A DNA stretch of 64,000 bases, from contig CAWKAR010000003.1 of NCBI GenBank assembly GCA_963847625.1, forward strand, positions 32,001 to 96,000, written 5' to 3'. The notes below the pieces were generated by a model. The model did no database searches. It was not told where the DNA came from and was given only the letters and a program-made list of their open reading frames with translations. A program made the position numbers and the translations under genes. This document shows, piece by piece, positions 2,803-23,894 of this stretch (position 1 is its first letter; every line of letters starts with the position of its first letter). The DNA comes from a candidate division FCPU426 bacterium. Its GTDB lineage: Bacteria; Oederibacteriota; Muellerivitia; Muellerivitales; Muellerivitaceae.

Positions 2803-2819
2803 AGCATGCATGAAAACCG

Positions 2820-2900
2820 CATGCCAGCATTCCATAAAGCTTTTATTGGGGCTGGTATAGTACCAATTTCATTAATTGTTTTATGGTGAATTGGCACATG
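2820..2900. mobile_element. Hairpin-doublet micro-element
   Basis: CATG-CC[32-bp hairpin]GGTATAGTACC[32-bp hairpin]GGCA-CATG; a comparable empty context is at 312-335. Confidence 0.75.
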
Positions 2901-3199
2901 CATGAATTTTGAATTATGAATTTTGAATTGACTGCCCACACCAAACCCTTCTTAGCCACGGATGCAGGGGATACACTCAGATGGCAAAACCATGAATGAA
3001 TTATGAATTCTAAATTTTGAATTGACGGCTAAAGCGAACCCTTCTTGGCCACGGATGCAGGGGATACACTCAGATGGCAAAACCATGAATGAGCCTCTCG
3101 CACCTCAGCGAGTGGCAGTGCTTCGAGAGCCTCAGGGCAGAGTGGATTCGACTTCCTTTGGTCGCTCACCGCAGGCAATGAAAAAAAGAAACGGCGGCT

Positions 3200-3421
3200 T
3201 TAAAGCAATTTAATGAACCCTTCCACCTGCAAACCGGCTTGCCGGATGATCGCGCGGAGGGTGCCGCGGTCCAGTTCCCTATGATCCGGAACCGTCAATT
3301 GTGAGAAAGGTTCTTTTCGGCGGAGAATAATATGGGAAGAGTGCTGACGGATAAAAACGAAGCCTGCCTTGGAAAGAGCCTGTGCGCATTCTCTTCCCGA
3401 TAGACGGGGAAGTTTGCTCAT
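3200..3421 (-). CDS. hicA: HicA family toxin
   Basis: MSKLPRLSGRE...GF..IRQHSSHIIL...TVPDH.ELDRGTLRAIIRQAG. Confidence 0.9.
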   Translation of the reverse strand: MSKLPRLSGRECAQALSKAGFVFIRQHSSHIILRRKEPFSQLTVPDHRELDRGTLRAIIRQAGLQVEGFIKLL

Positions 3422-3624
3422 ATGGCCACTAAAACGGCCTCGAAATGTTCCTTGGGAACGGATAAATGGTCGTCTTTCAACGCGGTCACATAGCCATCAA
3501 TGGCGTCCTTGATATTTTGAATCGCTTTTTTCCGCGTCTTGCCTTGGCTGATACAGCCTGGAAGGCTGGGACATTCCGCCACCCAATAACCATCCTCACC
3601 TGGGTAAATAAAAACCTGTCTCAT
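3418..3624 (-). CDS. hicB: HicB family antitoxin (start probably ATG 3624)
   Basis: MRQVFIYPGEDGYWVAECPSLPGCISQGKT..A..NI.DAI..Y; overlaps hicA. Confidence 0.9.
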   Translation of the reverse strand: MRQVFIYPGEDGYWVAECPSLPGCISQGKTRKKAIQNIKDAIDGYVTALKDDHLSVPKEHFEAVLVAI

Positions 3625-3709
3625 GCTGAACCTCAATTAAGCTTTTAAAGAGTTCGGTATAGTACCGATTTCAATTAATTATTGTTTCATTAATGAAAAT
3701 CGGCACATG
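3622..3709. mobile_element. Hairpin-doublet micro-element inserted at the hicB start codon
   Basis: CATG at both 3622-3625 and 3706-3709; original SD AAAGGTG lies beyond the insert on the minus strand. Confidence 0.75.
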
Positions 3710-3810
3710 GCTTCACCTTTCCGGTTATTCGAAATCCAAAGCTATCGGTAATATTGTACAACTTAACATAAAGGGAACAAAGGATCAGTTTCCAAAAACG
3801 GAGGCGGTCT

Positions 3811-4085
3811 GTCCCCGCGCGGTTTTGGGCACAGCGTGATTTTTGGGTGCAATTCTCCAAGCTTTGGGGAAGCCTGGGACGGGTGCGCCGATTCTCATAT
3901 AAACCGTCAATGTTATCGGTGCTATACCGACCACTTTATATGATTAATAGAAGGTCGGCATTCGCCGATCATCCATAAATATGTATTGCGACTGGTGCTA
4001 TACCGAACTCTCATTGAAAGCCTAATGGAGGTTCGGTATGGCACTGCATTGGGTGGGCATTGATCATTAGCCGGAACATTCATAA
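3811..4085 (+). pseudogene. Relic of ydcF-like gene C-terminus (fragment 2) split by two tandem hairpin doublets (3886-4040)
   Basis: VPARFWAQRDFWVQFSKLWGSLGRV | ALHWVGIDH*PEHS* versus TPNWFWMSRDFWVEIFKFWGSLFRV GLHLVGIENWPVHS*. Confidence 0.85.
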
Positions 4086-4598
4086 AAAACATGAATGAAT
4101 TATGAATTGAAGAGCAAAAAAGGCCACGACATACATGAAAACCACACGAATGAATTATGAATTGACGGCAAAAACAGCGAAACTCTCCCCATACAGTTTA
4201 CATTCCTTTGGTCTCTCATTATGTTGTCGCCAATCGGCGACACCCTTCTTAGCCACGGATGCAGGGGATACACTCAGATGGCAAAACCATGAATAAATTA
4301 TGAATTTTGAATTATGAATTGACTGCCTAAGGTCATCACTCCTTATGGTTTTAATCCCTTTGGTCTCTCCGTAGGTTGTCGCGTATATACGACATTCTTC
4401 TTAGCGGATTCGATGGAGTCTGTAGTGAGGCTCTCGAACTACTTACCACAGGTTAGGGGTTTGGAGTTAGGGTTAGGTGTTTTCCACCTAATAACCAATC
4501 AAACGATACTTTAATAAAGGTTTATTTCAGAACGGTATTCGATAATCTTGGGGTAACTTGCTATAATCACTTGTGTATTCTCGATTTAAGGAACTTTC

Positions 4599-4883
4599 AT
4601 GAAAAACGATAGGTTTGTTTTTTCAAACGCTGTTTTTAAGGAAGATAACGGCTATTCTTCCTTGTGTTTGGACCTGGATGTCGCAAGCCAGGGGCGTACA
4701 ATCGACGAAGCCAAGAAAAACCTATTGGAAGCCATTGAGCTTTACTTGGAAACGGCCATTGAGAGTAACCTGCCTTACTTAAGGCCCGTACCTCCCAGCG
4801 AGGATCCACGCAAGACCAAGATGGACCATTGCGTCGGGATTTTTGACCTTAAAGTCGCTCTTTCCATAAAGGCTCATGCCTAA
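4599..4883 (+). CDS. hicB: HicB family antitoxin
   Basis: GYSSLCLDLDVASQGRTIDEAKKNLLEAIELYLE. Confidence 0.9.
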   Translation: MKNDRFVFSNAVFKEDNGYSSLCLDLDVASQGRTIDEAKKNLLEAIELYLETAIESNLPYLRPVPPSEDPRKTKMDHCVGIFDLKVALSIKAHA

Positions 4884-5085
4884 ACTACCGGTCCTACGCC
4901 CCCGGGAAGTTATCTCCAAGCTTGAACGTTTGGGATTTTCCGTTGTCCGCCAAAAAGGTAGCCATATTCAGATGAAAAATGGAAACCTTTTAGTGACGGT
5001 GCCGATGCACTCCGGGGTAATTCCTAAAGGGACTCTTAAATCCATTTTGCGTCAGGCAAAAATAGGTATTGAAGATATTTTGTGA
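4876..5085 (+). CDS. hicA: HicA family toxin
   Basis: MPKLPVL.PREVI..LE.LGF..VRQKGSH...VTVPMH...I.KGTLKSILRQA. Confidence 0.92.
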   Translation: MPKLPVLRPREVISKLERLGFSVVRQKGSHIQMKNGNLLVTVPMHSGVIPKGTLKSILRQAKIGIEDIL

Positions 5086-5150
5086 GTGAAGCCGTGTTTG
5101 TTTAAAGAGTTCACCAACTATACTACCGTCCCTTGCTTTATTTTCTTGTT

Positions 5151-5198
5151 TGTCCCTATCCAAACAATCCTGTTCCCAACCGCTATTGGATGACCCGC
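5151..5198 (+). pseudogene. Relic of ydcF-like gene (fragment 3)
   Basis: CPYPNNPVPNRYWMTR versus APYPNEPTPNWFWMSR. Confidence 0.7.
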
Positions 5199-5410
5199 AG
5201 CATGCATGAGATTCAAATGCATTTGAACCTTATGCATGAATTATGAATTTTAAATTTTGAATTATGAATTGAAAAGCAAAAAAGGCCACAACATGCATGA
5301 GAACCTCAGGCATGAATTATGAATTCTGAATTTTGAATTTTGAATTTTAAATCCCAAACATCCAGCTCACTATCATGCGGCTTTAATCCTTTTGGTCTCC
5401 CCCTATGTTG

Positions 5411-5477
5411 GCCAATTTCCATTTGAAATTGGCACTACCAAGTCTTGTCCCTCGCTTGGTAGGCTCTGGACAGGTTG
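5411..5477 (+). mobile_element. Two-hairpin micro-element with GTTG flanking duplication
   Basis: GTTG-GCCAATTTC..GAAATTGGC-ACTACCAAGTCT-TGTCC..GGACA-G-GTTG; the empty site GTTGTCGCGTATATACGACA is at 4375-4394. Confidence 0.75.
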
Positions 5478-5634
5478 TCGCGTATATACGACAAATGTTC
5501 GGTTTTTAGCATGCATGTCCTATTTCTGATTTATCCAATGCGTTGTTGGGTATTGAGCATAGTTCCTCCTAGGCATCCCAAAAACTTTGACATTTCCCTG
5601 GACTTCGTCAATATTTAACATATATTGTTAAATT

Positions 5635-6846
5635 ATGACAAACTATCATTCCCGTGAAATCGTCCCCCGGCTGCGGGAAGCCCTGGAGGACATGCCGGTC
5701 GTGGTGCTGACGGGTCCCCGCCAGGCCGGTAAAAGCACCCTCCTCCAACTCGACCCCGCCTTCTCGAAACGGCGTTACGCCACTTTCGACGATTACGCGA
5801 CCCTGGATGCCGCCCAACGGGACCCGGAAACCTTCCTGGAAGGGGGACCCCTCACTCTGGATGAGGTCCAGCGGTTTCCCGAAATCCTTTCGGCGGTCAA
5901 ACACTCCGTCGACCGGAACCGCCGTCCCGGGCATTTCCTCCTGAGCGGGTCGGCGAACCTCCGCCTCCTTAAAAACGTCACCGAAAGCCTCGCCGGCAGG
6001 GCGGTTTACCTCGATCTCCAGCCCTTTACCGCCCGCGAGGCGGAAGGCAGGACATCCCGCCCCCCGGTTTTGCGGGACCTGCTCCAGGGGATTCCCCCGG
6101 AAGGCAAAGCCCGCCCTTTCGATTTCGGAACCGTCCTCAAAGGCGGGATGCCGAGCGTCATCCTGGGCGAAGTGAAAAAACCCGAAATATGGTTCAAGGG
6201 ATACGTGCAAACCTATCTCGAGAGGGACTTGAGGGACCTGAGCCAGGTGGGCGACCTGGCTGGTTTCCGCCGGTTGATGAAGTTGGCTGCGCTGAGGACC
6301 GGCGGCATCCTAAGCCTTTCCGACCTGGCGCGGGACGCGAAGATGAACGTGATGACCCTCTCCCGGTACCTTTCCCTGCTGGAGACGTCCTTCCTGATCC
6401 GGCGCCTGCCGCCGTACCTGGGAAACCAGACCAGCCGCCTGGTGAAATCCCCAAAGCTCTACTTCACCGACTCCGGTTTGGCCGCCCATTTGACCGGCCT
6501 GGACCCCTCCCAGGAAGACCATCCCCTGAAAGGCGTCCTGCTCGAGAATTGGGTCGCCCAGAATTTGCTGGCGTTATCCGAGGCCTTATTTCCGGAATCC
6601 GGAGGTTTCTATTGGAACATCCAGGGCCGTTACGAGGTGGATTTTATCCTGGAATCTGGGAAAAGAACCCTCGCGGTGGAAGTCAAGTGGGGTTCCCGGC
6701 CCAAGGCGGAGGATTTGCGGGGTTTGGAAGCCTTCCTGAAGTCCCAGGAGGAGCCGGTTACCGGAGTCCTCGCGACCACGGGACGGGAAACACTCCCCCT
6801 GGGCAAAAATCTCTGGGCCGTTCCCATTAATCTTTTGCTCGCCTAA
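5635..6846 (+). CDS. AAA+ ATPase with C-terminal DUF4143/restriction-endonuclease-like domain
   Basis: Walker A GPRQAGKST, LDEVQR, LSGS, ESLAGR, KSPKLYFTDSGL, EVDFI...VEVK. Confidence 0.9.
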   Translation: MTNYHSREIVPRLREALEDMPVVVLTGPRQAGKSTLLQLDPAFSKRRYATFDDYATLDAAQRDPETFLEGGPLTLDEVQRFPEILSAVKHSVDRNRRPGHFLLSGSANLRLLKNVTESLAGRAVYLDLQPFTAREAEGRTSRPPVLRDLLQGIPPEGKARPFDFGTVLKGGMPSVILGEVKKPEIWFKGYVQTYLERDLRDLSQVGDLAGFRRLMKLAALRTGGILSLSDLARDAKMNVMTLSRYLSLLETSFLIRRLPPYLGNQTSRLVKSPKLYFTDSGLAAHLTGLDPSQEDHPLKGVLLENWVAQNLLALSEALFPESGGFYWNIQGRYEVDFILESGKRTLAVEVKWGSRPKAEDLRGLEAFLKSQEEPVTGVLATTGRETLPLGKNLWAVPINLLLA

Positions 6847-6880
6847 CACGAAAATAACCTAACTTACTTTCTTATTTATT

Positions 6881-6962
6881 CATCCCTGCCCCGGCGAACG
6901 GATTCGACTCACTTTGTTCGCTCACCGCAGGGCCTGTTCCCAACCGCTTTTGGATGACCCGC
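6881..6962 (+). pseudogene. Relic of ydcF-like gene (fragment 4) interrupted by a TTCGA-type element
   Basis: HPCPGE[~33-bp GGATTCGACTC...CTCACCGCAGG insert]PVPNRFWMTR. Confidence 0.7.
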
Positions 6963-6979
6963 AGCATGCATGAAGTTCA

Positions 6980-7060
6980 CATGCCGAACTTCCATAAAGA
7001 TTTCATAGAGTTCGGTATAGTACCAATTACATTATCTGTCTTATGGTGAATTGGCACATG
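6980..7060. mobile_element. Hairpin-doublet micro-element
   Basis: CATG-CCGAAC..GTTCGG-TATAGTA-CCAATT..AATTGG-CA-CATG. Confidence 0.75.
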
Positions 7061-7137
7061 CATGAATTCTGAATTTTAAATTTTGAATTATGAATTGACG
7101 GCTAACACCAAACCCTTCTTAGCCACGGATGCAGGGG

Positions 7138-7206
7138 TACCAATTTCTTGTTTAGAAATTGGCACACCCAAGGCTTGCTCCTCGGCTTGTAGCCTCGGAG
7201 CAGGGG
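7138..7206 (+). mobile_element. Two-hairpin micro-element inserted in the 46-bp repeat
   Basis: GCAGGGG|TACCAATTTC..GAAATTGGCACACCCAAGG..GCTCC..GGAGCAGGGG|AT; uninterrupted copies at 386, 2952, 3045 and 4249. Confidence 0.75.
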
Positions 7207-7430
7207 ATGCATGACATTCCAAAAAACCAGGAATGAATTATGAATTCTAAATTTTGAATTATGAATTTCGGATTGATTTCCGTATCCCGGAAATCCCCAA
7301 TCATTCAACATTTAAAATCAAGAATTTAGAATTGTTGCCATATATCAACACTGCCTTTTCAGAAAGCGTCCAATCCGTTCACCCATCCCGCGTATTGACT
7401 ATGTTGTAAATTAGGAGTATAGATATCAAT

Positions 7431-8582
7431 ATGCAACGTCTACTAAAACGCGCCAGGCTGATCCGGCGCATCGAAACCTGTCTGGACGCGGCCCCGGTCA
7501 CGGTATTACTGGGCGCAAGGCAGGTGGGAAAGACCACCTTGGCGGGGATGGTTGCCGCGAAGCGAAAGGCCGTGTCTTTTTTTGATTTGGAAACGATGGC
7601 TGACCGGCGGGCCCTCGCCACGCCGGAAATGACGCTGAAGGAATGCCGGGGATTGGTGGTTCTGGACGAGGTCCAAAGACTTCCGGATTTGTTCACGGTC
7701 TTGAGGCCCCTGGCCGACCGTCAGGGCCGTCCCGCGACCTTCCTTCTTTTAGGAAGCGCGTCCCCGGCCCTGGTGAAGGGGGTCTCCGAATCGCTGGCAG
7801 GAAGGGCTTTGTTCGTGGGCATACCCGGTTTTTCCATCGAGGAGGCCGGACCACGGCGCTTGAACGCCCTTTGGCTGAGGGGCGGTTATCCCAAAACCTT
7901 CCTGGAGGGCAAAGCCGCCGCCAGGGAACGCTGGGTGGAAAGCTTTCTGTCGTCGCTTTGGGAACGGGACATCCCCCAGCTTGGCTTGAGAGTGGCTGCG
8001 GCGGCCCTCCAGCGCTTCTGGCTGACGTTGGCGCATTACCATGCCCAGGTTTGGAACGCCTCCGAACTGTCCCGGGCGATGGACGTGACGCCAAAAACCG
8101 CCCAATATTACCTGGACATCCTCGAGGGCCTGTACGTTGTCCGGGTGCTGAAACCTTGGCACGAAAACATCAAGAAACGCCAGGTGAAATCCCCCAAGGT
8201 TTATTTCAGGGACAGCGGCCTTTTCCACCGGATGATCGGCGTCGATACACCCAGCCAATTGGCGTCCCATCCGAAGAGGGGCGCGTCTTGGGAGGGGTTT
8301 GCCCTGGAGCAGGCCTTGATTCAATGGGGGGAGAAGGACTCCTATTACTGGGCTACCCAGCGCGGGGCGGAACTGGACCTTTTGCTTGTCCGCAAGGGAC
8401 GCCGTTACGGGGTCGAATTCAAATGCTCCGACGCGCCGGAAATGACCCGGTCCATGCATATGGCACTGGGAGATTTGGGCCTTTCACGGCTTTACGTCGT
8501 CTACCCGGGTTCCCGGCGGTATCCGTTGCACCCTAAGGTAACGGCTCTACCGGCGGTAGACCTTCCCAAAACCTCGCTGTGA
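7431..8582 (+). CDS. AAA+ ATPase with DUF4143 domain
   Basis: GARQVGKTT, LDEVQR, LGSAS, ESLAGR, KSPKVYFRDSGL, ELDLL...VEFK. Confidence 0.9.
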   Translation: MQRLLKRARLIRRIETCLDAAPVTVLLGARQVGKTTLAGMVAAKRKAVSFFDLETMADRRALATPEMTLKECRGLVVLDEVQRLPDLFTVLRPLADRQGRPATFLLLGSASPALVKGVSESLAGRALFVGIPGFSIEEAGPRRLNALWLRGGYPKTFLEGKAAARERWVESFLSSLWERDIPQLGLRVAAAALQRFWLTLAHYHAQVWNASELSRAMDVTPKTAQYYLDILEGLYVVRVLKPWHENIKKRQVKSPKVYFRDSGLFHRMIGVDTPSQLASHPKRGASWEGFALEQALIQWGEKDSYYWATQRGAELDLLLVRKGRRYGVEFKCSDAPEMTRSMHMALGDLGLSRLYVVYPGSRRYPLHPKVTALPAVDLPKTSL

Positions 8583-8626
8583 AAAAACGTTCACTTGCAA
8601 ACATAGGGGTCTGATCACCTGCTCCG

Positions 8627-8706
8627 CATGCCGAACTTCCATAAAGCTTATAAAGAGTTCGGTATAGTACCAATTTCATTAACTGCTTTATGGTGAATTG
8701 GCACAG
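8627..8706. mobile_element. Hairpin-doublet micro-element
   Basis: Same architecture as 2820-2900 and 6980-7060. Confidence 0.72.
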
Positions 8707-8956
8707 CAGGTGCTAGTGTACATTTTACATTTTAAGGCTAAACGATGAAGGCTTCGACTCACTGCCACACGCTGCGGTGCGTGGGGCTCAGCCGATTGTC
8801 CTCACCGCAGGCAATGAAATATTTGAAGAACGGAATGAGGGGTTAGGAGTTAAGCCCGCAAATCATACCAAAAAGACAATTAGGAATGAGGTATTAGGAG
8901 TTGGAAGCTTAAAACAAAGAGCAAGAACACCAAATCTTTTTTAATCCAGTGTCTCC

Positions 8957-9239
8957 CCCAGGCTCCGACCAATTTCGTGCCAGCCTTCCATAAAGCGGTT
9001 AATGAGGCTGGTACTGCACTGATTTCCTTGACTGTTTTATGGAGGATCAGCGCGAGCTTATCCGCGGTTTAATCCGATTGGGTTTTGAAGGCCCCTACAG
9101 CGGTGGAAAACATATGTTCATGGTCAAGGGCCCGTTGAAGCTTCGTATACCTAACCCCCACCAAAGCGATATTAGCATTCCTCTTTTAAGGGAAATACTT
9201 CGGCAGGCCGGCATTCAACCAACCTATTGGAATAAATAA
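8957..9239 (+). pseudogene. hicA: HicA family toxin interrupted near its N-terminus by a hairpin doublet; no hicB
   Basis: PRLRPIS at 8957-8977, doublet ~8978-9050, then RELIRGLIRLGFEGPYSGGKH...IPNPH..DIS..LLREILRQAG in another frame. Confidence 0.7.
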
Positions 9240-9299
9240 GCTAATAATCAAAAAAACACTTCGAGCATTCCAAGGCTGCATTTAACATTTAGGACTTCA

Positions 9300-9395
9300 A
9301 TCCAGATCGATCTTTATCCCGATGAGCCTGTCCCCCACCGCTTTTGGATGACCCGCAACTTTTGGATTCATATGTTCAGGTTTTGGGGGAGCTTG
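9300..9395 (+). pseudogene. Relic of ydcF-like gene (fragment 5)
   Basis: IQIDLYPDEPVPHRFWMTRNFWIHMFRFWGSL versus AKVAPYPNEPTPNWFWMSRDFWVEIFKFWGSL. Confidence 0.85.
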
Positions 9396-9576
9396 AAACA
9401 AATGAATAATGAACCCATTCGACAAGCTCAGGGCCATCGGATTCGACTAGCTCGGGGCAGAAATTAGGAATTGACGGTATAACAGCGGCAGAACAAACAC
9501 GAAATAGCAAATTTTAATTTGCCGTTAATTCCCCAGCATCGCTAATATATTGAAAATCCCTATTGGAGCGCACTGA

Positions 9577-10128: not shown

Positions 10129-10318
10129 AAAACAAATTAGTAATTCGGTATGAGGAATTTGGAATTAACTGCTAAAACAACAGCAAAACCACGGCTTAGC
10201 GGGTTCGATAATCTCACTACGGGCAATGAATAATGGGATACAATTGGAAATTAGGAATATGGAATTATGAGTTAAAAATTAACCGCAAAAACAAAAAAAC
10301 AAAGAAAGGAAAAAAGAT

Positions 10319-10483
10319 ATGAAATCTTTTGCAATGAAACCTTGCGCTTGGAAAATTTGTCTGGGTCTTTCCGCGATTGCTTATGTAGTGGGCGCTTATC
10401 GTCATTATAATTATCAAGCGGGAATAAGTTCTTTTGTGCTTTCTTTCATCATGAGCATATGGGCGATTTCCTTTAAGAAATAG
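10319..10483 (+). CDS. Small hydrophobic protein, 54 aa, two predicted TM segments (absent from ORF track)
   Basis: MKSFAMKPCAWKICLGLSAIAYVVGAYRHYNYQAGISSFVLSFIMSIWAISFKK; GAAAGGA SD; paralog at 10741. Confidence 0.7.
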   Translation: MKSFAMKPCAWKICLGLSAIAYVVGAYRHYNYQAGISSFVLSFIMSIWAISFKK

Positions 10484-10509
10484 GCTCATAAAATACTTTA
10501 CAACCTCTG

Positions 10510-10536
10510 AAAAAGCCGGCTTATCGCCGGCTTTTT
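10510..10536. terminator. Bidirectional intrinsic terminator
   Basis: AAAAAGCCGGC-TTATC-GCCGGCTTTTT. Confidence 0.7.
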
Positions 10537-10740
10537 CAGCAACCATCAAAGGGAACCCCGCGATTTCCTTATCGTTTTTTCAATTATGAGAATCGGCACA
10601 TCTGTGGCTAAATTTTATTATGGACAGATGATTTCACTGCTAATAGTTCGTGGTTGACAGTTCGCAGGGCTTCGACGATGCTCATAACAGGTGCAGTCAG
10701 GACTGGTTGAAGCCAAAATAACAAAGAAAGGAAAAAAGAA

Positions 10741-10893
10741 ATGAACTCTTATCTTTGGAAAATTTGTTTGGGTCTTTCCGCGGTTGCTCTTTTGGCGGGC
10801 GCTTACCGCCATATTTTTTCTATGGGAGGGACAACTCTCTTGCCGGCCGCTATCGTCTTGGGTGTATGGGCCATTGCCTTAAAAATGAAATAA
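10741..10893 (+). CDS. Small hydrophobic protein, 50 aa, paralog of 10319-10483
   Basis: MNSYLWKICLGLSAVALLAGAYRHIFSMGGTTLLPAAIVLGVWAIALKMK; same upstream AACAAAGAAAGGAAAAAAGA. Confidence 0.7.
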   Translation: MNSYLWKICLGLSAVALLAGAYRHIFSMGGTTLLPAAIVLGVWAIALKMK

Positions 10894-11025
10894 GTTCATA
10901 AAACACTTTATAAAGCTTAAATAAATTATCATTGTGCCGATTCTTAATATAAATATTATTTGGAAATCGGCACATCTGTGGCTAGATAATATTTGATTTT
11001 AAACTGCTGTTATACTTCCATTTAC

Positions 11026-11217: not shown

Positions 11218-11392
11218 TTTTTCCCCCGCGGTCCCCCGCGAATCACCTTATGTTTTATCATAACGCGGTTCTACACCCAATAAACCAATGGCCTTATAGG
11301 AACTTGCCGGCCCCGATTGTCCAGGACAGGTTGAATTAACAGAAAAAAGTCAGGAAATAGAAGCCAGGAGTTTTTAAAACCCTCCATCCATC

Positions 11393-11669: not shown

Positions 11670-13115
11670 CTATAAACATTGGGAAACCCGGTCCGGTTCC
11701 ACCGGACCGGCTGTGGCCGACTCCTCGGCCTTTCTCCACAAAAGCAGTTCCAACACGCTTTGGGTGTAGTCACAGCGTATTTTCTCCCAGTAGACCTTGA
11801 CCGCGGGGGAGGCGTTCGGGTTCCGGTCCACCGTCAGCCTGCCCACGGGACAGCCGCCGCCGCACAGGTAGCGCCAGGGGCATTTCGCGCACTTTTCCAG
11901 GCGGTCCACGTTCAACTCTTCCTGCAGGACCTCCAGCACCTTTTCCGATCCACCGGCTCCGCCCATTTGAAACCTCTTGATCCCGACGAGATAGACGCAG
12001 GGATAAACATCCCCGTTCGCGGAAACCACGGGCTTATTGCCGTAAGCGGCGCCGCAGCCCACGACGGTCACGAAGCCGGGCTTGAACCTGGACAGGTATT
12101 GGTTGAAGGGGTAAAGCTCCCCGGTTTTCCAGGGGCCGCTCCGGAATATCTCCGCCAGGGCGCGGATGACTTTCTCCGGGTCCGGCAGGAGGCTTTCCGG
12201 AAGGATGCTCTCGTCGGAATTGACGGGGATCACCGGCACGAAGGCGCTGGTACTGCCCCCCAGGGCCTTGTGCAGGGCCGAGGTTTCCCCCAGGAAATCC
12301 TGGTTCAAGGACGTGACGGTGGCCCGCAGTTCCACCCGCAAGCCGGCCGCGCGCAATTCCCGGATGCTCCGCGCCGAGGCCTCATAGGTCCCCCCTCCGT
12401 TGCGAAAGGGCCTGCACCGGTCGTGGACCGCGGGAGGCCCGTCGATGTCGCACATGAAGGAAATATCGTATTTCTTCGCCCATTCGACCAGGTCTTGGGG
12501 CAGGAAGGATAAATTGCTGGTGACGCAGTATTTCGCGCTTTTGCCCGGATGTTTTTCGCCCAAGCTTTTCCCGCAATGAAGGATGGCCTCCTTCGCCAGG
12601 GGCCAGTTCAAGAGGGGTTCCCCCCCGAAAAATTCGATTTGTAGGTTTCCCCCCTCGGCGAGGTCGTCGAGGCACCGGTCGATGGCCTGGAAGGCGGTTT
12701 CCGCTTTCATTTTCAGGCCCTGGTCCGTTTGGTAGGAGTTCCTTCCGTCCAGGCAATAGGCGCAGTTCATGTTGCAGGATTGGGAAAGGAGGAGGTAAAG
12801 GGCCATGTTCATTTTCTTGGCGGGAACCGGCCCGGCCGGGGCCATGGGCTTGAACTGGTCTTGCAACCCGTCGGGAAAGACGATGCCGTAATCCAGCATG
12901 ACGTTCAAGAGGCCCGCTTCCCGGGGATAGGCGCGCAGAATCCCATCCCGGGAGCCCAATTCCCGGACCGCGTCAAGGAACGTCCGGATGTACTTCCCCC
13001 CTTTTTTCATGTAAAGCGGGCGGCGCACCAGGGCGTTGGCCAAAAGGAGCTCATCCTGGCCCCTCTCGAGCAGGATCAGGTCCTCCGCGACCGCCAGCCG
13101 GGGACTATTTGCCAT
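11670..13115 (-). CDS. Radical SAM/SPASM-domain protein (start probably MANSPRL at 13115)
   Basis: CNMNCAYC, FFGGEPLL, SPASM cysteines CGA..YPC..CAKCPWRYLCGGGC..C. Confidence 0.9.
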   Translation of the reverse strand: MANSPRLAVAEDLILLERGQDELLLANALVRRPLYMKKGGKYIRTFLDAVRELGSRDGILRAYPREAGLLNVMLDYGIVFPDGLQDQFKPMAPAGPVPAKKMNMALYLLLSQSCNMNCAYCLDGRNSYQTDQGLKMKAETAFQAIDRCLDDLAEGGNLQIEFFGGEPLLNWPLAKEAILHCGKSLGEKHPGKSAKYCVTSNLSFLPQDLVEWAKKYDISFMCDIDGPPAVHDRCRPFRNGGGTYEASARSIRELRAAGLRVELRATVTSLNQDFLGETSALHKALGGSTSAFVPVIPVNSDESILPESLLPDPEKVIRALAEIFRSGPWKTGELYPFNQYLSRFKPGFVTVVGCGAAYGNKPVVSANGDVYPCVYLVGIKRFQMGGAGGSEKVLEVLQEELNVDRLEKCAKCPWRYLCGGGCPVGRLTVDRNPNASPAVKVYWEKIRCDYTQSVLELLLWRKAEESATAGPVEPDRVSQCL

Positions 13116-13385
13116 CGCGACAGCCTCCGAACTATAAAGAAAAGAAATCCACGGCAAAGAACAACTCACAGCAAAACCATGGCTTAGCCACGGATGCATG
13201 GGATACATGGGATATGATAAGCAAAATATTTCAGGTTTTTTCTTTTCAATTTTTTAAAAACCCCGGCACATCATGAGAGCTTCAAAGGAGAAGGGCAATG
13301 GGGAATAGAAGCGGCTAATTGTTAATCATACATTCTTCATTTTTCACTGCTATTTTGTTGGGGCCGAAAAAAGAAAAAGCCTATA

Positions 13386-13466
13386 TGCCGATTTTCATAT
13401 GTGAAAAATAGAATAATGGAATCGGTACAATACCGGCATCATTATCAGATTTATGGATTGCCGGCA
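13386..13466. mobile_element. Hairpin-doublet micro-element
   Basis: TGCCGATT..AATCGGTACAATACCGGCATCATTA-TCAGAT-TTATGGATTGCCGGCA. Confidence 0.7.
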
Positions 13467-13554
13467 TGGCTGTTGGTGTTTTATCTTTTACTTTTGCCTT
13501 TTTTGGTTCAAGACAGTCCTAGAACGGCGCGGGGGGTTCCCGTCCGAACGCCCC

Positions 13555-15524: not shown

Positions 15525-15590
15525 GGCTTCCTCCTAGGTATTTAATCCCCCGCGCGGGGTTGGTAACTTGAACCGGCTTTTCAAACGCCT

Positions 15591-16517: not shown

Positions 16518-16600
16518 GGGGACCTCGCGAATTTAGATTTACGGCGGTTTAGAAATAAATGTTAACCTTGAAAAATGGCGTAGTCAATAAAGTAAAACGG

Positions 16601-18061: not shown

Positions 18062-18150
18062 AAATACTCCCGGGAAAGGAGTTTTATTAAAAGAAACAAA
18101 ACCATTTTAAACGATGCGGTGGATAATAGCGGCAAATAAGGAGGATTGGT

Positions 18151-18801
18151 ATGAACTGGAAACCCTTATTTTATACCGCCCTATTCCTGGGCGTTTTTTT
18201 CATTGGACCTTTCAAGGACAGCAACCCCATCCATCGGGAGGGCGACCCACGCCCCTCCACATGGGACGAATTCAAAAAACTCGGCGGTGGAACACAATAC
18301 GATTGCGTTAAGGGAATCCCCCATAACGAGATATTCCTGGATTTTATCGACATGATCGGGAAATCCATCACGAAGGGGGCGGATTACAGCGACGGCTTTA
18401 CCGGCGGCAAGTCCTGGGGCGTCTGCAAGGATAAAACCACGAGCTATCTATTCGACGAGGACAAAAATTTGGTCCTGGTTATCAGGGACATTGACCCAAG
18501 GCGTTACAACCTGTTCCTTTCAAATATTTCTAATAAGTTTAATAAAGAGGGGATTTCCGGGGGTTCTTATGAAACCGGCGGCCCCTTAGGGGGCAAAGAA
18601 GTCCGGCACAAATACACCTTCAGAAGTTTCGAGCTTGAGGGGAGGATGATTTATTTATTCAAGGCCAGCGAGGTTTCCCAGGACGGCAAGGTGTTGAAAC
18701 ATACGGGAGCTGTTTTCTGTCCGAGGAGCTCCATCGAGAAATTGAAAACCGACATGAAAATGGAGCACCTCGATGCCCTCCAACGCAACCGGAAAGATTA
18801 A
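18151..18801 (+). CDS. Hypothetical exported protein
   Basis: AAGGAGG SD; N-terminal hydrophobic segment; 216 aa. Confidence 0.6.
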   Translation: MNWKPLFYTALFLGVFFIGPFKDSNPIHREGDPRPSTWDEFKKLGGGTQYDCVKGIPHNEIFLDFIDMIGKSITKGADYSDGFTGGKSWGVCKDKTTSYLFDEDKNLVLVIRDIDPRRYNLFLSNISNKFNKEGISGGSYETGGPLGGKEVRHKYTFRSFELEGRMIYLFKASEVSQDGKVLKHTGAVFCPRSSIEKLKTDMKMEHLDALQRNRKD

Positions 18802-18948
18802 GTGAAATCCAAGCAAATAAGGCCTTTCACGGTACACTTTTTGTGCAAAAAATTGCACATTTTTGGGTTAAATCTTCAGGAAAATCGGTAATATATCCGG
18901 CGATTCCCCTGTGAAACTTGTGTGCCACTCTATTAATAAGAATTTTAA

Positions 18949-20388
18949 ATGAACCAAAAAATTCTGGTTTTATACCACTACTACCACCCCGATGACATGG
19001 CGGGCGCTGTCATCTTCACGGACTTTTGCGAGGGGCTGGCCAAAAAAGGCCGGTTCCCCGGCGGAACCGGCACACCCAAAGCACGTGCCTCGTCTGGTGG
19101 ACTCGGCACAGGGGATTGGGAAGTGGAAGTTTGGCCCTCGAACCGGGCTTGCCACCATCCGGCAAGCTATCCGCTGAAACCGGAGATAAAGAACGGTGTT
19201 CTCATCCGCCGCGTCTGGCGGCCGTCCTTGCCCCAAAACCTCTTTTTTGTCCGTGTCCTCAATTCCCTTCTCATGCTCAAACTTTGGTGGCTGAGGCTGG
19301 CCTTCACCCCTTCCATGAAGCCGGACATCATCCTGATCGGCTCCGACCCCTTTTTATCCATCATGCTGGTCCCCTTTTTGAAATTCCTGCGGCCCAAGGC
19401 CAAGATCGTCCACTGGTGCTTCGTCCTCTTCCCCGAGGCGGCGGAGGCGGACAGGTTGATCGGAAAATTAAGCCCTTTCTTCAGTGCGCTCATGCCGCTC
19501 GTCAAACGGGGGTATTCCAAGTGCGACCTGGCCGCGGGCATGTGCCCATCCATGAAAGAACGCCTGGAACAATACCCCGTCAAGAAAACCGCCGCTTTCA
19601 CGCCTTGGGCCCTGGTGGAGCCGGCCCACAGCCTGCCTTACGACATGAAAGAGCGGATCGACCTGTTCGGCAATTGCCACCTGGGCCTGCTTTATTCCGG
19701 CAGTTTCGGCCGGCCCCATGACTTCTACCTCACCCTGAAACTGGCCCGCCTGATGGTAAGCCAATCGGGCTCCACCAGCAAACCGACCGCTGTTTTCACC
19801 TATGGGGTCCAGGAAAGCCATTCGTACGCGATAAAACTGGCGGTCAACCCGGAAGACACCAATATCCGTTTGGCCGGTTTCGCGCCCAAGGATAAACTTG
19901 CCGCCCGCCTTTCCGCCGCCGATATCCACCTGGTTTCCCTCCGCTCCGAATGGAACGGCATGATGGCGCCCGCCAAGTTCTTCGGCGCCCTGGCGGTGGG
20001 CCGGCCCATCCTGTTCGAAGGTTCGGCGGGCCGGGCCTCTCAATCTAATGGGCCCGGCACACCCAAGACTCGCGTCTCGATACCAAACCAATTTAACAAA
20101 GGGTTTGGCACAATCAAACCTAGTGCCTCGCCTGGTAGGCTCGGCACAGATGCTGGTGGCTTCGACGCAGGGGATTCCTGCATCGCCAAGTGGATCGAGG
20201 AATACCAGGTGGGCTGGGTTTTGCGGTACGACAACCTGGACGAGATTGCCGAAACGTTGAGGAAGTTTTCCAGGGATCACGCGAAAAAAGCCGACATGTT
20301 CAGGCACTGCCATAAAATCTACAAGGATCATTTCTCAAAGAGAATCATCATCGAACAGTGGGATAAAGAGCTTCGATCGCTTTTTTAA
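18949..20388 (+). CDS. GT4 (WbuB-like) glycosyltransferase with two in-frame repeat-derived insertions
   Basis: HYYHPD, LLYSGSFGRPH, ADIHLVSL...PAKFFGALAVGRPILF; inserts at 19048-19113 and 20029-20172. Confidence 0.88.
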   Translation: MNQKILVLYHYYHPDDMAGAVIFTDFCEGLAKKGRFPGGTGTPKARASSGGLGTGDWEVEVWPSNRACHHPASYPLKPEIKNGVLIRRVWRPSLPQNLFFVRVLNSLLMLKLWWLRLAFTPSMKPDIILIGSDPFLSIMLVPFLKFLRPKAKIVHWCFVLFPEAAEADRLIGKLSPFFSALMPLVKRGYSKCDLAAGMCPSMKERLEQYPVKKTAAFTPWALVEPAHSLPYDMKERIDLFGNCHLGLLYSGSFGRPHDFYLTLKLARLMVSQSGSTSKPTAVFTYGVQESHSYAIKLAVNPEDTNIRLAGFAPKDKLAARLSAADIHLVSLRSEWNGMMAPAKFFGALAVGRPILFEGSAGRASQSNGPGTPKTRVSIPNQFNKGFGTIKPSASPGRLGTDAGGFDAGDSCIAKWIEEYQVGWVLRYDNLDEIAETLRKFSRDHAKKADMFRHCHKIYKDHFSKRIIIEQWDKELRSLF

Positions 20389-20617
20389 TTTAGAAACCCT
20401 AATAAAAATCAAACCACAGAGTTAACGGAGTTATACGGAGTTAAAAAAATCTAAAAAGTCGTTTAAAATCAATATGCTTTACTCTGTTCCATCAGTGTAA
20501 CTCTGTGTTAAATGCCTTTTTGTTAGAGCCTCTTAAAAATGGAGAATTAAAAATTGCCGTTAAATCAACTACCGTTATAATCAGGCCTGTATTTCAACAT
20601 CCCCAGGGGGAACCACT

Positions 20618-21655
20618 ATGGCTTCACATCCGAAAAACCGCAAAAAATCCGGGCGCACCGCCTTCGTGACCGGCATCACGGGCCAGGACGGGTCCTGGCT
20701 TGCGGATTTGCTGTTGGAAAAGGGCTACAAAGTTTACGGCCTGATCCGGCGCTCCTCTTCCTTCAACACCGACCGCATCAGCCACATCTACCACAACCCC
20801 CAGGTCAACAACCGGAAATTTTTCCTGCGTTACGGGGACCTGTCCGATTCCTCGGGACTCGCGAAGCTCCTCCACCAGATCCAACCGGACGAGATCTACC
20901 ACCTCGGCTCCATGAGCCACGTGCGCGTCTCCTTCGACCTGCCCGAATACACAGGGGAAGTCACGGGGGTCGCCACCATGAAGCTGTTGGAAGCCATGCG
21001 GGTCGTCTGCCCGAAATCCCGCTTTTACAACGCCGCCAGCTCGGAACTGTTCGGCGGCCTGAACTGCCCCCCCAAGGGCTACAACGAAAAGAGCCCCTTT
21101 TACCCCCGGAGCCCCTATGCGGTCTCGAAGCTTTACTCCTACTGGTCCTCGAAAAACTACCGGGAGGCCTACGGCCTGCATATTTCCAACGGCATCCTCT
21201 TCAACCACGAGAGCGAGCGCCGGGGGGAAACCTTCGTCACCCGCAAAATCACAACCGCCGTGGGCCGGATCAAGGTGGGGCTCCAGAATTTCCTTTTCCT
21301 TGGCAACCTGGACGCGAAACGGGACTGGGGCGACGCCAAGGAATACGTGCGGGCCATGTGGATGATGCTCCAGCAGAAAAAACCGGACGATTACGTCATT
21401 GCCACGGGCGAGACCCATTCGGTCAAGGAATTCCTGGAGGAAGCCTTCAGTTACGCCGGCCTTGATTGGAAACAATACGTGAAGTTCGACCCCCGCTACC
21501 TGCGGCCCACCGAGGTGGATTACCTCAAGGGCGACGCTTCCAAGGCCTACCGGGTTTTCGGCTGGAAAAACAAGACCACGTTCAAGCAGTTGGTGCACCG
21601 GATGGTGGACCACGATATGAATAATATCGACCTCGGTAGTAAAGGGGACGCTTAA
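20618..21655 (+). CDS. gmd: GDP-mannose 4,6-dehydratase
   Basis: [59 protein letters not shown]. Confidence 0.97.
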
Positions 21656-21720
21656 CAGCAAAACAAGTTTGGAGTGATGAGTTAGGAATTAACGACAGAA
21701 CAATAGAAAATAGATACATA

Positions 21721-21789
21721 ACGGACGCCGGCCGCAACCTGACCCGCGCGAAGAACGCGGAGGATATGTTCCGTGAATTGGGTGTTTAA
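21721..21789 (+). pseudogene. C-terminal remnant of a DinJ/RelB-type antitoxin
   Basis: TDAGRNLTRAKNAEDMFRELGV*, stop overlapping the toxin ATG; no start or N-terminal domain upstream. Confidence 0.6.
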
Positions 21790-22058
21790 TGCTCCATCCC
21801 GCGTTCACGAGCCAATTCCGCCGCGACCTAAAATTGGTGATCCGGCGGGGTAAATCCCCGGATAAATTCAAGGAAATAGCCGGTCTCCTAATCGAGGAAC
21901 GTCCCTTGGAAACCCGCCACCGCAATCACAAACTCTCAGGCCATTTTCAAGACCGCCGGGAGCGCCATATCGAGCCGAATTGGCTTTTGATCTATAAGCT
22001 ATCCGGAAATGAAATTATTTTCGAGCGTACCGGCTCCCATTCCGATCTGTTCGAATAA
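21789..22058 (+). CDS. yafQ: YafQ family mRNA interferase toxin
   Basis: TSQFRRDLK, RNHKLSG, HIEPNWLLIY, FERTGSHSDLF. Confidence 0.88.
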   Translation: MLHPAFTSQFRRDLKLVIRRGKSPDKFKEIAGLLIEERPLETRHRNHKLSGHFQDRRERHIEPNWLLIYKLSGNEIIFERTGSHSDLFE

Positions 22059-22150
22059 ACCCCGCGCGCAAAGAGAATAAAAAATACAACTTAAAGTAGT
22101 CCCCGCTCGATATAATCCTTAATCACAAATCATAAAAAAGGACAAAACCC

Positions 22151-23095
22151 ATGGACAAGAAATCGAAAATCTACGTGGCCGGGCACAAGGGCCTCGTCGG
22201 AAGCGCCCTGGTGCGCTGTTTGGAAGCCCATGGGTATGACAACCTGGTTGTCCGCACCCACGCCGAGCTCGACCTGGTCCGCCAGGCCGCTGTGGACGCC
22301 TTCTTCCAGAAGGAAAACCCGGACGTCGTGTTCCTGGCCGCCGCCCGGGTGGGCGGGATCCTCGCCAACGAAAGCTTCCAGGCCGAGTTCATCTACAACA
22401 ACCTGGTCATCCAGGCCAACGTGCTGGAGGCGGCCTACCGCGGCGGCGCCAAGGAACTCCTCTTCATGGGCAGTTCCTGCATCTACCCCAACGACAAGAA
22501 CGTGGCCATCAAGGAGACCGACTTCATGAACGGGCCCCTGGAAAAGACCAACGACGCCTATGCCATCGCCAAGATCGCCGGCATCAAGGCCTGCGACGCT
22601 TACCGGCGCCAGTACGGGGTGCGCTACATCGCCGTCATGCCGACCAACCTTTACGGCCCCAACGACAATTACGACCTCCAGGAAGCCCACGTGCTTCCGG
22701 CCCTGATGCGCAAGTTCCACGAGGCGAAGCTGAAGAACAGCCCCACCGTGACCATGTGGGGCACCGGCACCCCCAAGCGGGAGTTCCTTCACGTGGACGA
22801 CCTGGCGGACGCCTGCCTGCACATCCTGCTGAACTACAAGGGCACCGACATGCTCAACGTCGGGTGCGGCGAGGACCTGACCATCCGCGAGCTGGCCGAG
22901 AAGATCGCCAAGACGGTGGGTTACCAGGGCAAGATCGTGCTGGATTCGACCAAGAAGGACGGCACGATGCGCAAACTCCTGGACATCAGCCGCCTCAAGG
23001 CGCTGGGCTGGGCCCCCAAAGTTTCCCTGGACGAGGGCTTGAAGCTGACCTACGCGGCCATGCAGAAGGAATTCGCCGAAGGAAACTGGAAATAA
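22151..23095 (+). CDS. fcl: GDP-L-fucose synthase
   Basis: AGHKGLVGSA, AAARVGGI, GSSCIYP, YAIAK, MPTNLYGPND, WGTGTPKREFLHVDD. Confidence 0.97.
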   Translation: MDKKSKIYVAGHKGLVGSALVRCLEAHGYDNLVVRTHAELDLVRQAAVDAFFQKENPDVVFLAAARVGGILANESFQAEFIYNNLVIQANVLEAAYRGGAKELLFMGSSCIYPNDKNVAIKETDFMNGPLEKTNDAYAIAKIAGIKACDAYRRQYGVRYIAVMPTNLYGPNDNYDLQEAHVLPALMRKFHEAKLKNSPTVTMWGTGTPKREFLHVDDLADACLHILLNYKGTDMLNVGCGEDLTIRELAEKIAKTVGYQGKIVLDSTKKDGTMRKLLDISRLKALGWAPKVSLDEGLKLTYAAMQKEFAEGNWK

Positions 23096-23618
23096 AAACA
23101 GGTGAACTACTAACTGCCAATTGCGTACTACTTTCTTTTTTTCGGCCCCTTCAATCAAGCCTCCATCTAATCAATGGGGTTTTGTTTATAAATGAGAGGA
23201 CGCTTGCTCGCTCCACACATTCCCCTGTGGGTTTTTTTATATAGGTCTTTTATCTAGGTTCCATTTGCATCTCAGAGAGCTACAGGCTTACAGGGTTCCC
23301 CTTACGCTCATTTGAGTTTAATTTGGCGGGCCATTTGGTTTAGGTTTTCATGAAGGAGCCGTGGGTTTTAAAAGCACAACTGTTTAAAGTCTTTTTTCTT
23401 TACCCAATCTAAATGCATCCCCTGAATCCGTGGCTAAGCTGTAGTTTTCATTTTTTCGTCCCCATTCAATCAGCGCAGAGCGCTCGTATACCAATTTCTT
23501 TGAAATATTCAAAGTGATATTGGCACTACGTTACCCCGGCTTAAAATGTAAGGCATATTTATAAATTTTGGGATTTACTTACTTAACCCCCTTTTGCCGG
23601 AGGGTGTATTTGTCATTG

Positions 23619-23894
23619 TGCCGATTTTCATTAATGAAATAATATTCAATTGAAACCGGTACTATACCGACCTCTTTAATATCTTTATGAAAAGTCGGCA
23701 TGCGAGGAACGAACTTTGTCCCTGCCACACGCTGTGCCAATTCACCATAAAGCAGTTAATGAAATTGGAACCATACCGAACTTTCATTGAAAGCCTAATG
23801 GAGGTTCGGCATGTGCCGATTCTCATAATTAAAATAATAAAAGGAAATCGGTACGATACCAGCCCCAATATTATCTTTATAAAAGGCTGGCATG
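23619..23894. mobile_element. Cluster of three hairpin doublets (23619-23700, 23735-23811, 23814-23892)
   Basis: Each is TG-[TGCC..GGWAC.ATACC..GGCA]-TG; the last two split the element CTGCCACACGCTG|CGGTGCGTGGGGC, which is intact at 8762-8788 and ~25767-25791 (reverse). Confidence 0.8.

What the first reader, a model, noticed from the sequence alone, without database searches (positions are those of the whole stretch)
2820..23894. Mobile hairpin-doublet micro-element with covarying stems, a dif-like core and TG target duplication
Seen: about 11 copies of a ~75-85 bp unit TGCC-[hairpin]-GGTRC.ATACC-[hairpin]-GGCA (2820, 3622, two at 3886-4040, 6980, 8627, 8978, 13386, 23619, 23735, 23814). About a dozen of the hairpins are exactly 32 bp with layout 12-bp arm / 6-bp spacer / 14-bp arm, e.g. 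CCAATTTCATTA-ACTGCT-TTATGGTGAATTGG, CCAGCCTCATTA-ACCGCT-TTATGGAAGGCTGG, CCGGCATCATTA-TCAGAT-TTATGGATTGCCGG. Outer stems differ between copies but stay complementary. Filled and empty sites both occur in the window, with a duplicated TG (often CATG): inside the GTG codon of a gene relic (3885/4040), inside a 25-bp repeat (23734/23894) and at a start codon (3622/3709). Established: CATAA-N6-TTATG is the inner geometry of XerCD dif sites; structure-conserved stems with unpaired extra bases typify integron attC sites; paired hairpins as the mobile unit typify REPINs. Inference: a non-autonomous element family read as folded DNA by a recombinase or transposase encoded elsewhere. It matches none of those three families exactly.
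Basis: partly seen in the sequence, partly recalled or inferred. Interest (0 to 1): 0.85.

Follow-up and report, generated by a model that had tools for sequence, protein, structure and literature searches.

The report
Twin-hairpin mobile DNA with guide spacer
This is a gene-less, roughly 77-base piece of jumping DNA, found only in one family of uncultivated bacteria, whose two central bases are complementary to the two-base site it sits in, which points to a tiny self-targeting element moved by an enzyme that has not yet been found.

Summary
Real. All 11 copies are present; the genome holds about 120, and 24 of 30 genomes of the same family (0 of 68 others in the phylum) carry it. The unit is two inverted bulged hairpins joined by a 3-nt spacer. 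Covariation shows that each half folds on itself, not into one long REPIN hairpin. It is an insertion: 61 of 106 copies have a paralogous empty site with exactly one dinucleotide. New here: spacer bases 1 and 3 are complementary to that dinucleotide (TG with C-N-A, CG with C-N-G, TA with T-N-A) on both flanks, and they predict which allele of a host repeat is hit. So the 'TG duplication' is a shared core, partly supplied by the element, not a fill-in duplication. The dif reading fails: the exact dif inner palindrome is in 0 of 179 halves, tip length varies, and the family lacks XerC/XerD. No mobiliser was found: no Y1, Y2, IS110, serine or integron enzyme tracks or flanks it. Best model: single-strand cut-and-rejoin of HUH (IS200/IS605, TnpA-REP) type, guided by the spacer. 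Verdict: new variant of folded-DNA micro-elements, enzyme unknown.

The parts
2821..2897 (-). Element copy (hairpin A, spacer CTA, hairpin B), TG core; boundaries include one core base at each end
3623..3706 (-). Element copy inserted in the ATG of a HicB-like gene (3418-3624); its end recreates the ATG
   Evidence: HicB label is my recall from the translation
3885..3961 (+). Element copy, first of a tandem pair inside a relic of a DUF218 gene 3' end
   Evidence: (D20)
3962..4039 (+). Element copy, second of the pair; junction reads TT
6981..7057 (-). Element copy, TG core, between two AAA_14/DUF4143 genes
8628..8704 (-). Element copy, TG core
8977..9053 (-). Element copy with spacer CAG and CG core on both flanks (guide-rule variant), at the start of a HicA relic
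13385..13467 (+). Element copy, long hairpin A, mixed flanks TA/TG
23618..23701 (+). Element copy in a GTCAT|TG|CG host repeat of the kind that flanks GIY-YIG genes
23734..23812 (+). Element copy, first of a tandem pair in a 25-bp host repeat
23813..23893 (+). Element copy, second of the pair
8765..8786 (+). Empty paralogue of the 23734/23894 site
25767..25788 (-). Second empty paralogue of the 23734/23894 site
10934..10973 (+). Single symmetric hairpin made of two A-type outer arms; probable deletion product of two elements (inference)
10560..10600 (-). Truncated A half in a CACRGA|TG host repeat
63362..63535 (+). Two divergent tandem copies with C-T-G spacers and CG junctions, abutting the 3' end of tRNA-Leu (63530-63616, minus strand)
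   Evidence: E 5e-9 and 4e-6; not in the training set

Best explanation
A non-autonomous mobile element of about 77 nt, moved as folded single-stranded DNA by an enzyme encoded elsewhere. Shown: two inverted hairpins (about 9-bp basal stem with invariant CC/GG, one or two extrahelical bases, variable A+T-rich tip) joined by N1-N2-N3; the same pyrimidine-purine dinucleotide X1X2 on both flanks; N1 complementary to X2 and N3 to X1; N2 free. Inferred: one strand folds so that the spacer pairs with the core at the hairpin feet; the enzyme cuts at the core at both ends and rejoins them, giving an empty site and a dumbbell-shaped circle whose junction carries the core opposite a bulged N2; the circle recombines with a target bearing the same core and replication fixes the insertion; its own junctions are targets or are amplified by a rolling mechanism, giving head-to-tail arrays. 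The chemistry most like this is HUH (Y1) transposition as in IS200/IS605 and TnpA-REP, where element-borne guide bases choose the cut site. I put the mobile, folded, spacer-matched part at about 0.85 and the HUH identity of the enzyme at a little over half of that.
For: Empty paralogues with exactly a 2-nt core for 61 of 106 copies; gaps of 0, 1, 3, 4, 5, 6 nt gave 0, 4, 0, 0, 1, 0. Local hairpins covary, the long A-with-B hairpin does not (403-493 of 500 shuffles as high). Flank rule in 204 distinct copies, tandem sides left out: 179/188, 180/188, 173/178, 173/178. Collapsed to 123 distinct contexts: all 6 with N3=G have C on both flanks against 5/117 and 2/117 of the rest. Allele choice: one host repeat has empties TG 48, TT 41, TA 3, yet C-N-A copies sit in TG 8/8 and T-N-A copies in TA 4/4; another has empties CG 78, TG 13, with C-N-A copies TG/TG 9 and CG/TG 2, C-N-G copies CG/CG 2. 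A TA/T-G-A/TA copy with a different hairpin type occurs in another genus (G024). Arrays of 7-8 near-identical copies in G001. Published precedent: guide-directed cleavage at a dinucleotide, retargetable by changing the guide (PMC8266576, passages; PMC5934647, abstract), strand transfer and tandem amplification of BIMEs (PMC3333891, passages).
Against: No Y1 gene is flanked by these hairpins: 0 of 31 loci; the Y1 genes seen in G000 and G001 have their own GGGGTCAG terminal repeats. G021 (98% complete, 33 model matches) and G023 (89%, 29) gave no Y1 match. The halves are inverted, whereas IS200/IS605 end hairpins lie on one strand. No GTAG/CGTC tag. No orientation bias to GC skew (49 of 98; weak test). 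Empty targets are no more structured than random intergenic TG sites (p 0.75-0.79). TA-core evidence rests on few independent events (2 of 3 and 1 of 3 contexts), copies are related, and some probably spread with their host repeat. Twenty of 204 copies have unequal flanks and do not fix the cut position. No excised junction or orthologous empty site was seen.
Confidence: 0.48

Rival explanations
1. Same element and same spacer rule, but moved by a lineage-specific enzyme of a class not tested here, or by exploiting nicks made by the small nucleases (GxxExxY, GIY-YIG) whose flanking repeats it so often occupies.
For: Confined to one family (24/30 against 0/68), so a family-wide host factor is likely; 48 of 106 copies sit in four host-repeat contexts whose TG alleles are only 114 of about 36,600 intergenic TG/CA sites; those repeats flank GxxExxY and GIY-YIG genes, present in 5 of 5 genomes tested.
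Against: These nuclease families are widespread outside the family (controls rang in 3 and 12 of 14 genomes); no known strand-transfer activity (my knowledge); many copies lie in unrelated sites, including genes and start codons.
Confidence: 0.2
2. A tyrosine recombinase, most simply the family's single chromosomal Xer-like protein, recombines the folded strand by one strand exchange and replication, as integron integrases do with attC.
For: The family lacks a XerC/XerD pair and every well-assembled member has one conserved Xer-like gene with a palindromic site just upstream in 17 of 18 loci read; it is the only recombinase found in all element-rich genomes tested. Extrahelical bases and a variable tip resemble attC (PMC2727003, passages).
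Against: That putative dif site has a fixed 6-bp centre and is single-copy in G000; element feet do not change with the dif arm type between genera; the crossover sits on the pseudo-dyad, not at the edge of a 6-8 bp overlap; G025 has a matching single-recombinase hit but no element; no integron integrase near cut-off among 7 G000 proteins scanned.
Confidence: 0.17
3. A MITE moved by a DDE transposase, best candidate the IS30-family elements of this genome, with a true short target duplication.
For: Ends read TG...CA; IS30 makes head-to-tail junctions (PMC9333248, passages); the terminal 16 nt of both IS30 families in G000 resemble the element's outer arms more than 99-99.8% of random genomic 16-mers.
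Against: These IS30 make 3-bp duplications (31/36 and 18/18); the element lacks their inner repeat box; IS30 found in only 5 of 24 relatives and not in G006, G016, G021; a DDE enzyme explains neither the within-half covariation nor the spacer-flank rule nor unequal flanks.
Confidence: 0.07
4. Not mobile in its own right: a structured RNA or regulatory motif copied only as a passenger of host repeats or by recombination.
For: Some host-plus-element composites are near-identical across the genome; the B end supplies an ATG in 182 of 204 copies, 82 with a purine-rich motif before it.
Against: Copies interrupt a gene relic and start codons; 123 distinct contexts; the fixed non-canonical pair lies on opposite strands in the two halves (G.T 194/204 in A, A.C 197/204 in B), which no single transcript favours; no Rfam family.
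Confidence: 0.08

Closest known systems
REPINs / BIMEs with RAYT (TnpA-REP, Y1 HUH)
   Same: Inverted doublet of small hairpins as the mobile unit, tandem arrays, nesting in other repeats, cut at a conserved dinucleotide chosen through element bases (PMC3116915, PMC8266576, PMC3333891, PMC3733652; passages).
   Different: No GTAG/GGAG/CGTC tag; no RAYT flanked by the repeat; halves fold separately; only a 3-nt spacer; exact, invariant ends; both flanks follow the spacer, with natural TG/CG/TA variants.
IS200/IS605 elements and PATEs
   Same: Gene-less two-hairpin element without true target duplication; target chosen by base pairing with element DNA (PMC5934647, abstract; PMC3119063, passages).
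   Different: Hairpins are inverted, cuts are at the hairpin feet, the recognised site is 2 nt and not 4-5, and no parent IS with these ends was found.
Integron attC sites
   Same: Structure conserved over sequence, extrahelical bases, variable terminal part (PMC2727003, passages).
   Different: Two hairpins, no unpaired central spacer inside a stem, no R-box core (consensus recalled, not from a call), no cassette gene, no integron integrase found.
dif sites (XerCD, XerS, XerH)
   Same: A+T-rich arms around a roughly 6-nt centre in the modal 32-nt half; TTAT next to the centre.
   Different: dif has a fixed 6-bp centre and is single-copy (PMC2731167, passages); here the tips vary in length, the inner palindrome is broken, and crossover is at the feet.
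Small mobile repeats (SMR) of Haloquadratum
   Same: 80-110 bp, no enzyme known, no target duplication, strong nesting in other mobile repeats (PMC3119063, passages).
   Different: SMRs have ordinary terminal inverted repeats; no twin hairpins or spacer-core complementarity described in the passages read.

Membership tests
REP/REPIN (RAYT) | Doublet of palindromes in inverted orientation, repeated and extragenic | tested here: met
   (9 of 100 copies have long open frames on both flanks)
REP/REPIN (RAYT) | GTAG/GGAG or CGTC tetranucleotide at the hairpin foot | tested here: not met
   column counts of both halves
REP/REPIN (RAYT) | A RAYT gene flanked by the cognate repeat | tested here: not met
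   0 of 31 Y1 loci; assemblies are incomplete
REP/REPIN (RAYT) | The doublet folds into one long hairpin | tested here: not met
   no covariation for that structure, although it is the predicted minimum-energy fold for 3 of 5 strands folded
REP/REPIN (RAYT) | Cleavage by TnpA-REP at a fixed dinucleotide | not testable with these tools
   needs protein; the genomic pattern fits
IS200/IS605 PATE | Sub-terminal palindromes related to an autonomous IS200/IS605 element | tested here: not met
   no IS200-type or other Y1 locus carries the halves; no gene-bearing long form in G000
IS200/IS605 PATE | No true target duplication; target set by element guide bases | tested here: met
   (inferred from covariation)
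IS200/IS605 PATE | Lagging-strand orientation bias | tested here: inconclusive
   49 of 98; weak skew and short contigs
Integron attC | Extrahelical bases and variable terminal structure | tested here: met
Integron attC | R''/R' core boxes, unpaired central spacer, one site per gene cassette | tested here: not met
Integron attC | Integron integrase in the genome | tested here: not met
   best TIGR02249 score 80 bits against cut-off 265 among 7 of the 18 tyrosine-recombinase hits scanned
dif/Xer | Two arms around a fixed 6-bp centre with CATAA/TTATG inner palindrome | tested here: not met
   0 of 179 halves in G000, 10 of 110 A halves elsewhere; half length 36-45 nt
dif/Xer | XerC and XerD present | tested here: not met
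   no family member over the XerD cut-off; 9 of 41 genomes over it, all in other families
MITE (DDE) | Terminal inverted repeats shared with a resident IS and the same duplication length | tested here: not met
   IS30 tips resemble the arms but duplicate 3 bp; other IS ends do not match
IS110 / IS607 non-autonomous derivative | 2-nt core shared by both ends and target | tested here: met
IS110 / IS607 non-autonomous derivative | Cognate recombinase in element-rich genomes | tested here: inconclusive
   no IS110 in G016 and G004, no resolvase domain in G016, G006, G004; multi-copy IS are often lost from such assemblies

The most novel reading that the evidence does not exclude
A new class of minimal mobile DNA: a 77-nt strand that closes into a dumbbell, carries its own two-base guide opposite a bulge at the centre, and is recombined by a host enzyme that is neither a RAYT nor an integron integrase (for example the family's single Xer-like protein or an unrecognised lineage-specific nuclease/ligase), so that its target dinucleotide is reprogrammed by changing two bases.
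Probability: 0.25. Interest if true: 0.85.

Novelty: new variant of a known kind. Interest (0 to 1): 0.62.

Why it matters
How REPIN-like micro-elements choose and join their targets is still open; guide retargeting has been shown only by engineering in vitro. Here natural variants in hundreds of copies show the spacer and the target dinucleotide changing together, with base-exact ends, which gives a ready substrate design (folded strand, dumbbell junction, TG/CG/TA targets) and a short list of candidate enzymes. If the enzyme is not a Y1 transposase, this is a further route to structure-read DNA recombination. The element also reshapes toxin-antitoxin and other small loci, by landing in start codons and recreating them.

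Tried and rejected
Mobiliser searches that led nowhere: Y1, Y2 (0 of 5 genomes, but the control was silent too), tyrosine recombinases (mostly tRNA-targeting integrases and a RIT trio), resolvase, IS110, IS30, clustering of 2120 open frames within 1.2 kb of copies (no recurrent recombinase except the 59-copy IS30 families), motif hunt for further HUH proteins, orphan halves flanking a gene in G000 (none; long forms hold other nested micro-repeats). Collections: viral contigs 0 matches for the full pattern and 9 for a half pattern, none an element; plasmids and phages only chance fragments; Rfam nothing. Orthologous empty sites in relatives: intergenic DNA around the window did not align. Public runs: no RNA holder listed; four DNA runs gave only short fragments and no joint skipping an element. 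Strand bias and target folding (98) were negative. An apparent double-change copy (CA core, T-N-G spacer, L032) proved to be an ordinary TG copy read backwards and was re-oriented before the final count. Two spacers were misplaced by the parser. One search timed out and was rewritten. Literature searches listed nothing on this family; subscription papers, ISfinder and supplementary repeat tables were not seen.
Full report
Observation. The 11 copies are in the window at the stated places. Written in one orientation each reads: X1 | X2-hairpin A-N1, N2, N3-hairpin B-X1 | X2, 77-84 nt. A profile search of the whole genome (4.43 Mb) gave 152 non-overlapping hits, 121 with E below 1e-9, 106 of them full length with clean ends. 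A scan that uses only pairing rules and the flank rule, no sequence profile, gave 90 hits: 79 already known, 9 variant members and 2 unrelated; on six contigs it found 40 in real and 1 in shuffled sequence. A covariance model built from 46 copies, 11 of them the window's own, also finds two divergent tandem copies at 63362-63535.

Structure. The halves are inverted copies of one motif: hairpin A on the top strand equals hairpin B on the bottom strand. For the two local hairpins 16 of 25 pairs change on both sides, 107 cells against 40.7 in shuffles, 0 of 500 reaching it, and slid controls fall to 25-42% paired. For the alternative long hairpin of A with B there is no excess, although energy alone prefers it for 3 of 5 strands folded. 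In 204 distinct copies (94 from this genome, 110 from others) the basal stem keeps Watson-Crick pairing far above independence at its variable positions (for B, 197 against 112, 196 against 119, 197 against 141), and the third pair from the foot is G.T in A (194) and A.C in B (197); variants in other genera relax that pair. Tips vary: halves are 36-45 nt here and longer in G010 and G013. A and B types assort freely, 38 combinations of 12 and 16 types.

It is an insertion. For 61 of 106 copies the two 12-nt flanks occur elsewhere in the genome separated by exactly two bases; other gap lengths gave 0-4. In the window, copies interrupt a relic of a DUF218 gene, a 25-bp repeat with two empty paralogues, and the start codon of a small antitoxin-like gene. 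48 of 106 copies lie in four host-repeat contexts and 20 in tandem; those host repeats are the ones that flank GxxExxY and GIY-YIG genes. G001 has arrays of 7, 8 and 8 near-identical copies. Orthologous empty sites and excised junctions were looked for and not obtained, so mobility rests on paralogues.

The new point: spacer and core covary. Flanks are TG/TG in 83, CG/CG in 8 and TA/TA in 4 of 106 copies. The spacer follows: C-N-A with TG, C-N-G with CG, T-N-A with TA, N2 free. Over 204 copies: TG/C.A/TG 166, CG/C.G/CG 9, TA/T.A/TA 4; 20 have unequal flanks and 5 have equal flanks against the spacer. After leaving out tandem junctions and collapsing to 123 distinct contexts, all 6 with N3=G have C on both sides against 5 and 2 of 117 others; for N1=T the counts are 2 of 3 and 1 of 3 against 2 and 0 of 120. 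These are related sequences, so the p values (1e-7, 7e-9, 0.002, 0.02) overstate. The outer flank bases belong to the target, so the rule is more than stem closure: in one host repeat with empties TG 48, TT 41, TA 3, C-N-A copies occupy TG 8 of 8 times and T-N-A copies TA 4 of 4; in another with empties CG 78, TG 13, C-N-A copies read TG/TG 9 times and CG/TG twice, C-N-G copies CG/CG twice. The CG/TG cases show that one side can come from the element, which a fill-in duplication cannot give. A scan blind to the flank rule on later loci gave 16 of 20 obeying, with TA-core copies in G001 and in another genus, G024 (three of the 20 are G000 copies already counted). Whether the cut is T|G or beside the dinucleotide is not resolved by the mixed cases.

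Distribution. The model matches 21 of 24 family members and 0 of 16 others, and 24 of 30 against 0 of 68 in a phylum-wide sample; counts per genome are capped and may include both strands. One record title names Candidatus Firestonebacteria (L034). Viral contigs, plasmids, phages and Rfam gave nothing.

The dif reading. The perfect inner palindrome is in 0 of 179 distinct halves here and 10 of 110 A halves elsewhere. The family has no XerC/XerD pair but one conserved Xer-like gene with its own palindrome, fixed 6-bp centre, directly upstream in 17 of 18 loci read (2 more of the 20 given were not parsed), single-copy in G000. That is the likely dif of the family, in the XerS/XerH arrangement (PMC2731167, passages), and it differs from the element.

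The enzyme was not found. No Y1 locus carries the halves (0 of 31); the Y1 genes of G000 and G001 are of the TIRYT kind with their own terminal repeats (PMC6006769 and PMC3733652, passages), though one lies 150 bp from an 8-copy array in G001. G021 and G023 have many copies and no Y1 match. Y2, resolvase, IS110 and integron integrase do not track it, and no recombinase recurs next to copies. The tips of two IS30 families resemble the outer arms, but they duplicate 3 bp and are missing from several element-rich genomes. Orientation against GC skew and folding of targets were both negative.

Mechanism. Shown: anatomy, self-folding halves, a 2-nt core shared by both ends and target, and its complementarity to the spacer. 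Inferred: single-strand excision to a dumbbell whose junction core faces the bulged spacer, insertion at a matching core, replicative fixing. This is the logic of IS608 (PMC5934647, abstract) and of TnpA-REP, which cuts at CT or CA chosen through guide bases and can be retargeted (PMC8266576, passages) and which can build tandem arrays (PMC3333891, passages). It works like a REPIN or PATE but fails their membership tests: no tag, no linked RAYT, no long hairpin (PMC3116915, passages), inverted halves, no parent IS (PMC3119063, passages). It shares unpaired features with attC (PMC2727003, passages) but not the boxes or the integrase. I give HUH-type chemistry 0.48, an untested host enzyme 0.2, a tyrosine recombinase 0.17, passenger or RNA motif 0.08, IS30 MITE 0.07.

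Novelty. Searches listed no description of this family; no supplement was read, and repeat catalogues outside the open library could hold it. An earlier unchecked note on this genome called the same repeats MITE/REPIN-like and TG-inserting; its summary does not mention the spacer rule. Verdict: real, a new variant of folded-DNA micro-elements, interest 0.62; if the enzyme proves to be of a new class, 0.85.

Noticed in passing
L048:1003-2037 (G000:C60:99799-100836, minus) and L109-L127: The family appears to have replaced XerC/XerD by one Xer-like recombinase with a palindromic 6-bp-centre site directly upstream of its start; the outer arms differ between genera but stay palindromic. A candidate new single-recombinase dif system.
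   Followed up: partly
G000:C27:261048-262102 and C14:24562-25613: Two IS30-family elements (39 and 20 copies) with 3-bp duplications whose terminal 16 nt resemble the element's outer arms; unexplained, possibly shared ancestry.
   Followed up: partly
window 63362-63616: Two divergent CG-core copies abut tRNA-Leu; the last hairpin's 3' strand overlaps the tRNA's CCA end.
   Followed up: no
window 3622-3709; G000:C45:193, C63:93748, C19:167450, C45:79349: Several copies sit in start codons and recreate the ATG with a purine-rich motif upstream, so the element may rewire translation starts of antitoxin and other genes.
   Followed up: partly
G000:C21:16250-16415, C57:102930-103095, C40:94665-94835, C45:10045-10165: Long forms (95-170 nt) hold other micro-repeats nested at the start of hairpin B; the intergenic DNA is a zoo of nested small repeats (GAATT arrays, GxxExxY- and GIY-YIG-type repeats).
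   Followed up: partly
window 892-1992: IS110-family transposase; 14 IS110 matches in the genome, one family inserted in the terminal repeats of TIRYT elements.
   Followed up: no
window 2135-9239, 21789-22058, 26230-26912: Dense cluster of small toxin-antitoxin modules (ParE, HicAB three times, RelE/StbE, Phd with a PIN-like partner by my reading) and two AAA_14/DUF4143 ATPases separated by repeats, like a cassette array without an integrase.
   Followed up: no
window 10319-10483, 10741-10893, 11670-13208: Two short paralogous ORFs (54 and 50 aa), each followed by a partial element, near a radical SAM/SPASM gene; possible peptide precursors.
   Followed up: no
G000: C36, C56, C60, C3, C52, C30, C4, C16: Eight paralogous integrases, each with a small upstream excisionase-like gene and a downstream tRNA (one at window 63809 onward).
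   Followed up: no
L029, L030 (G001:C2): Arrays of 7-8 identical 75-77 bp copies that could be mistaken for CRISPR or satellite repeats.
   Followed up: partly
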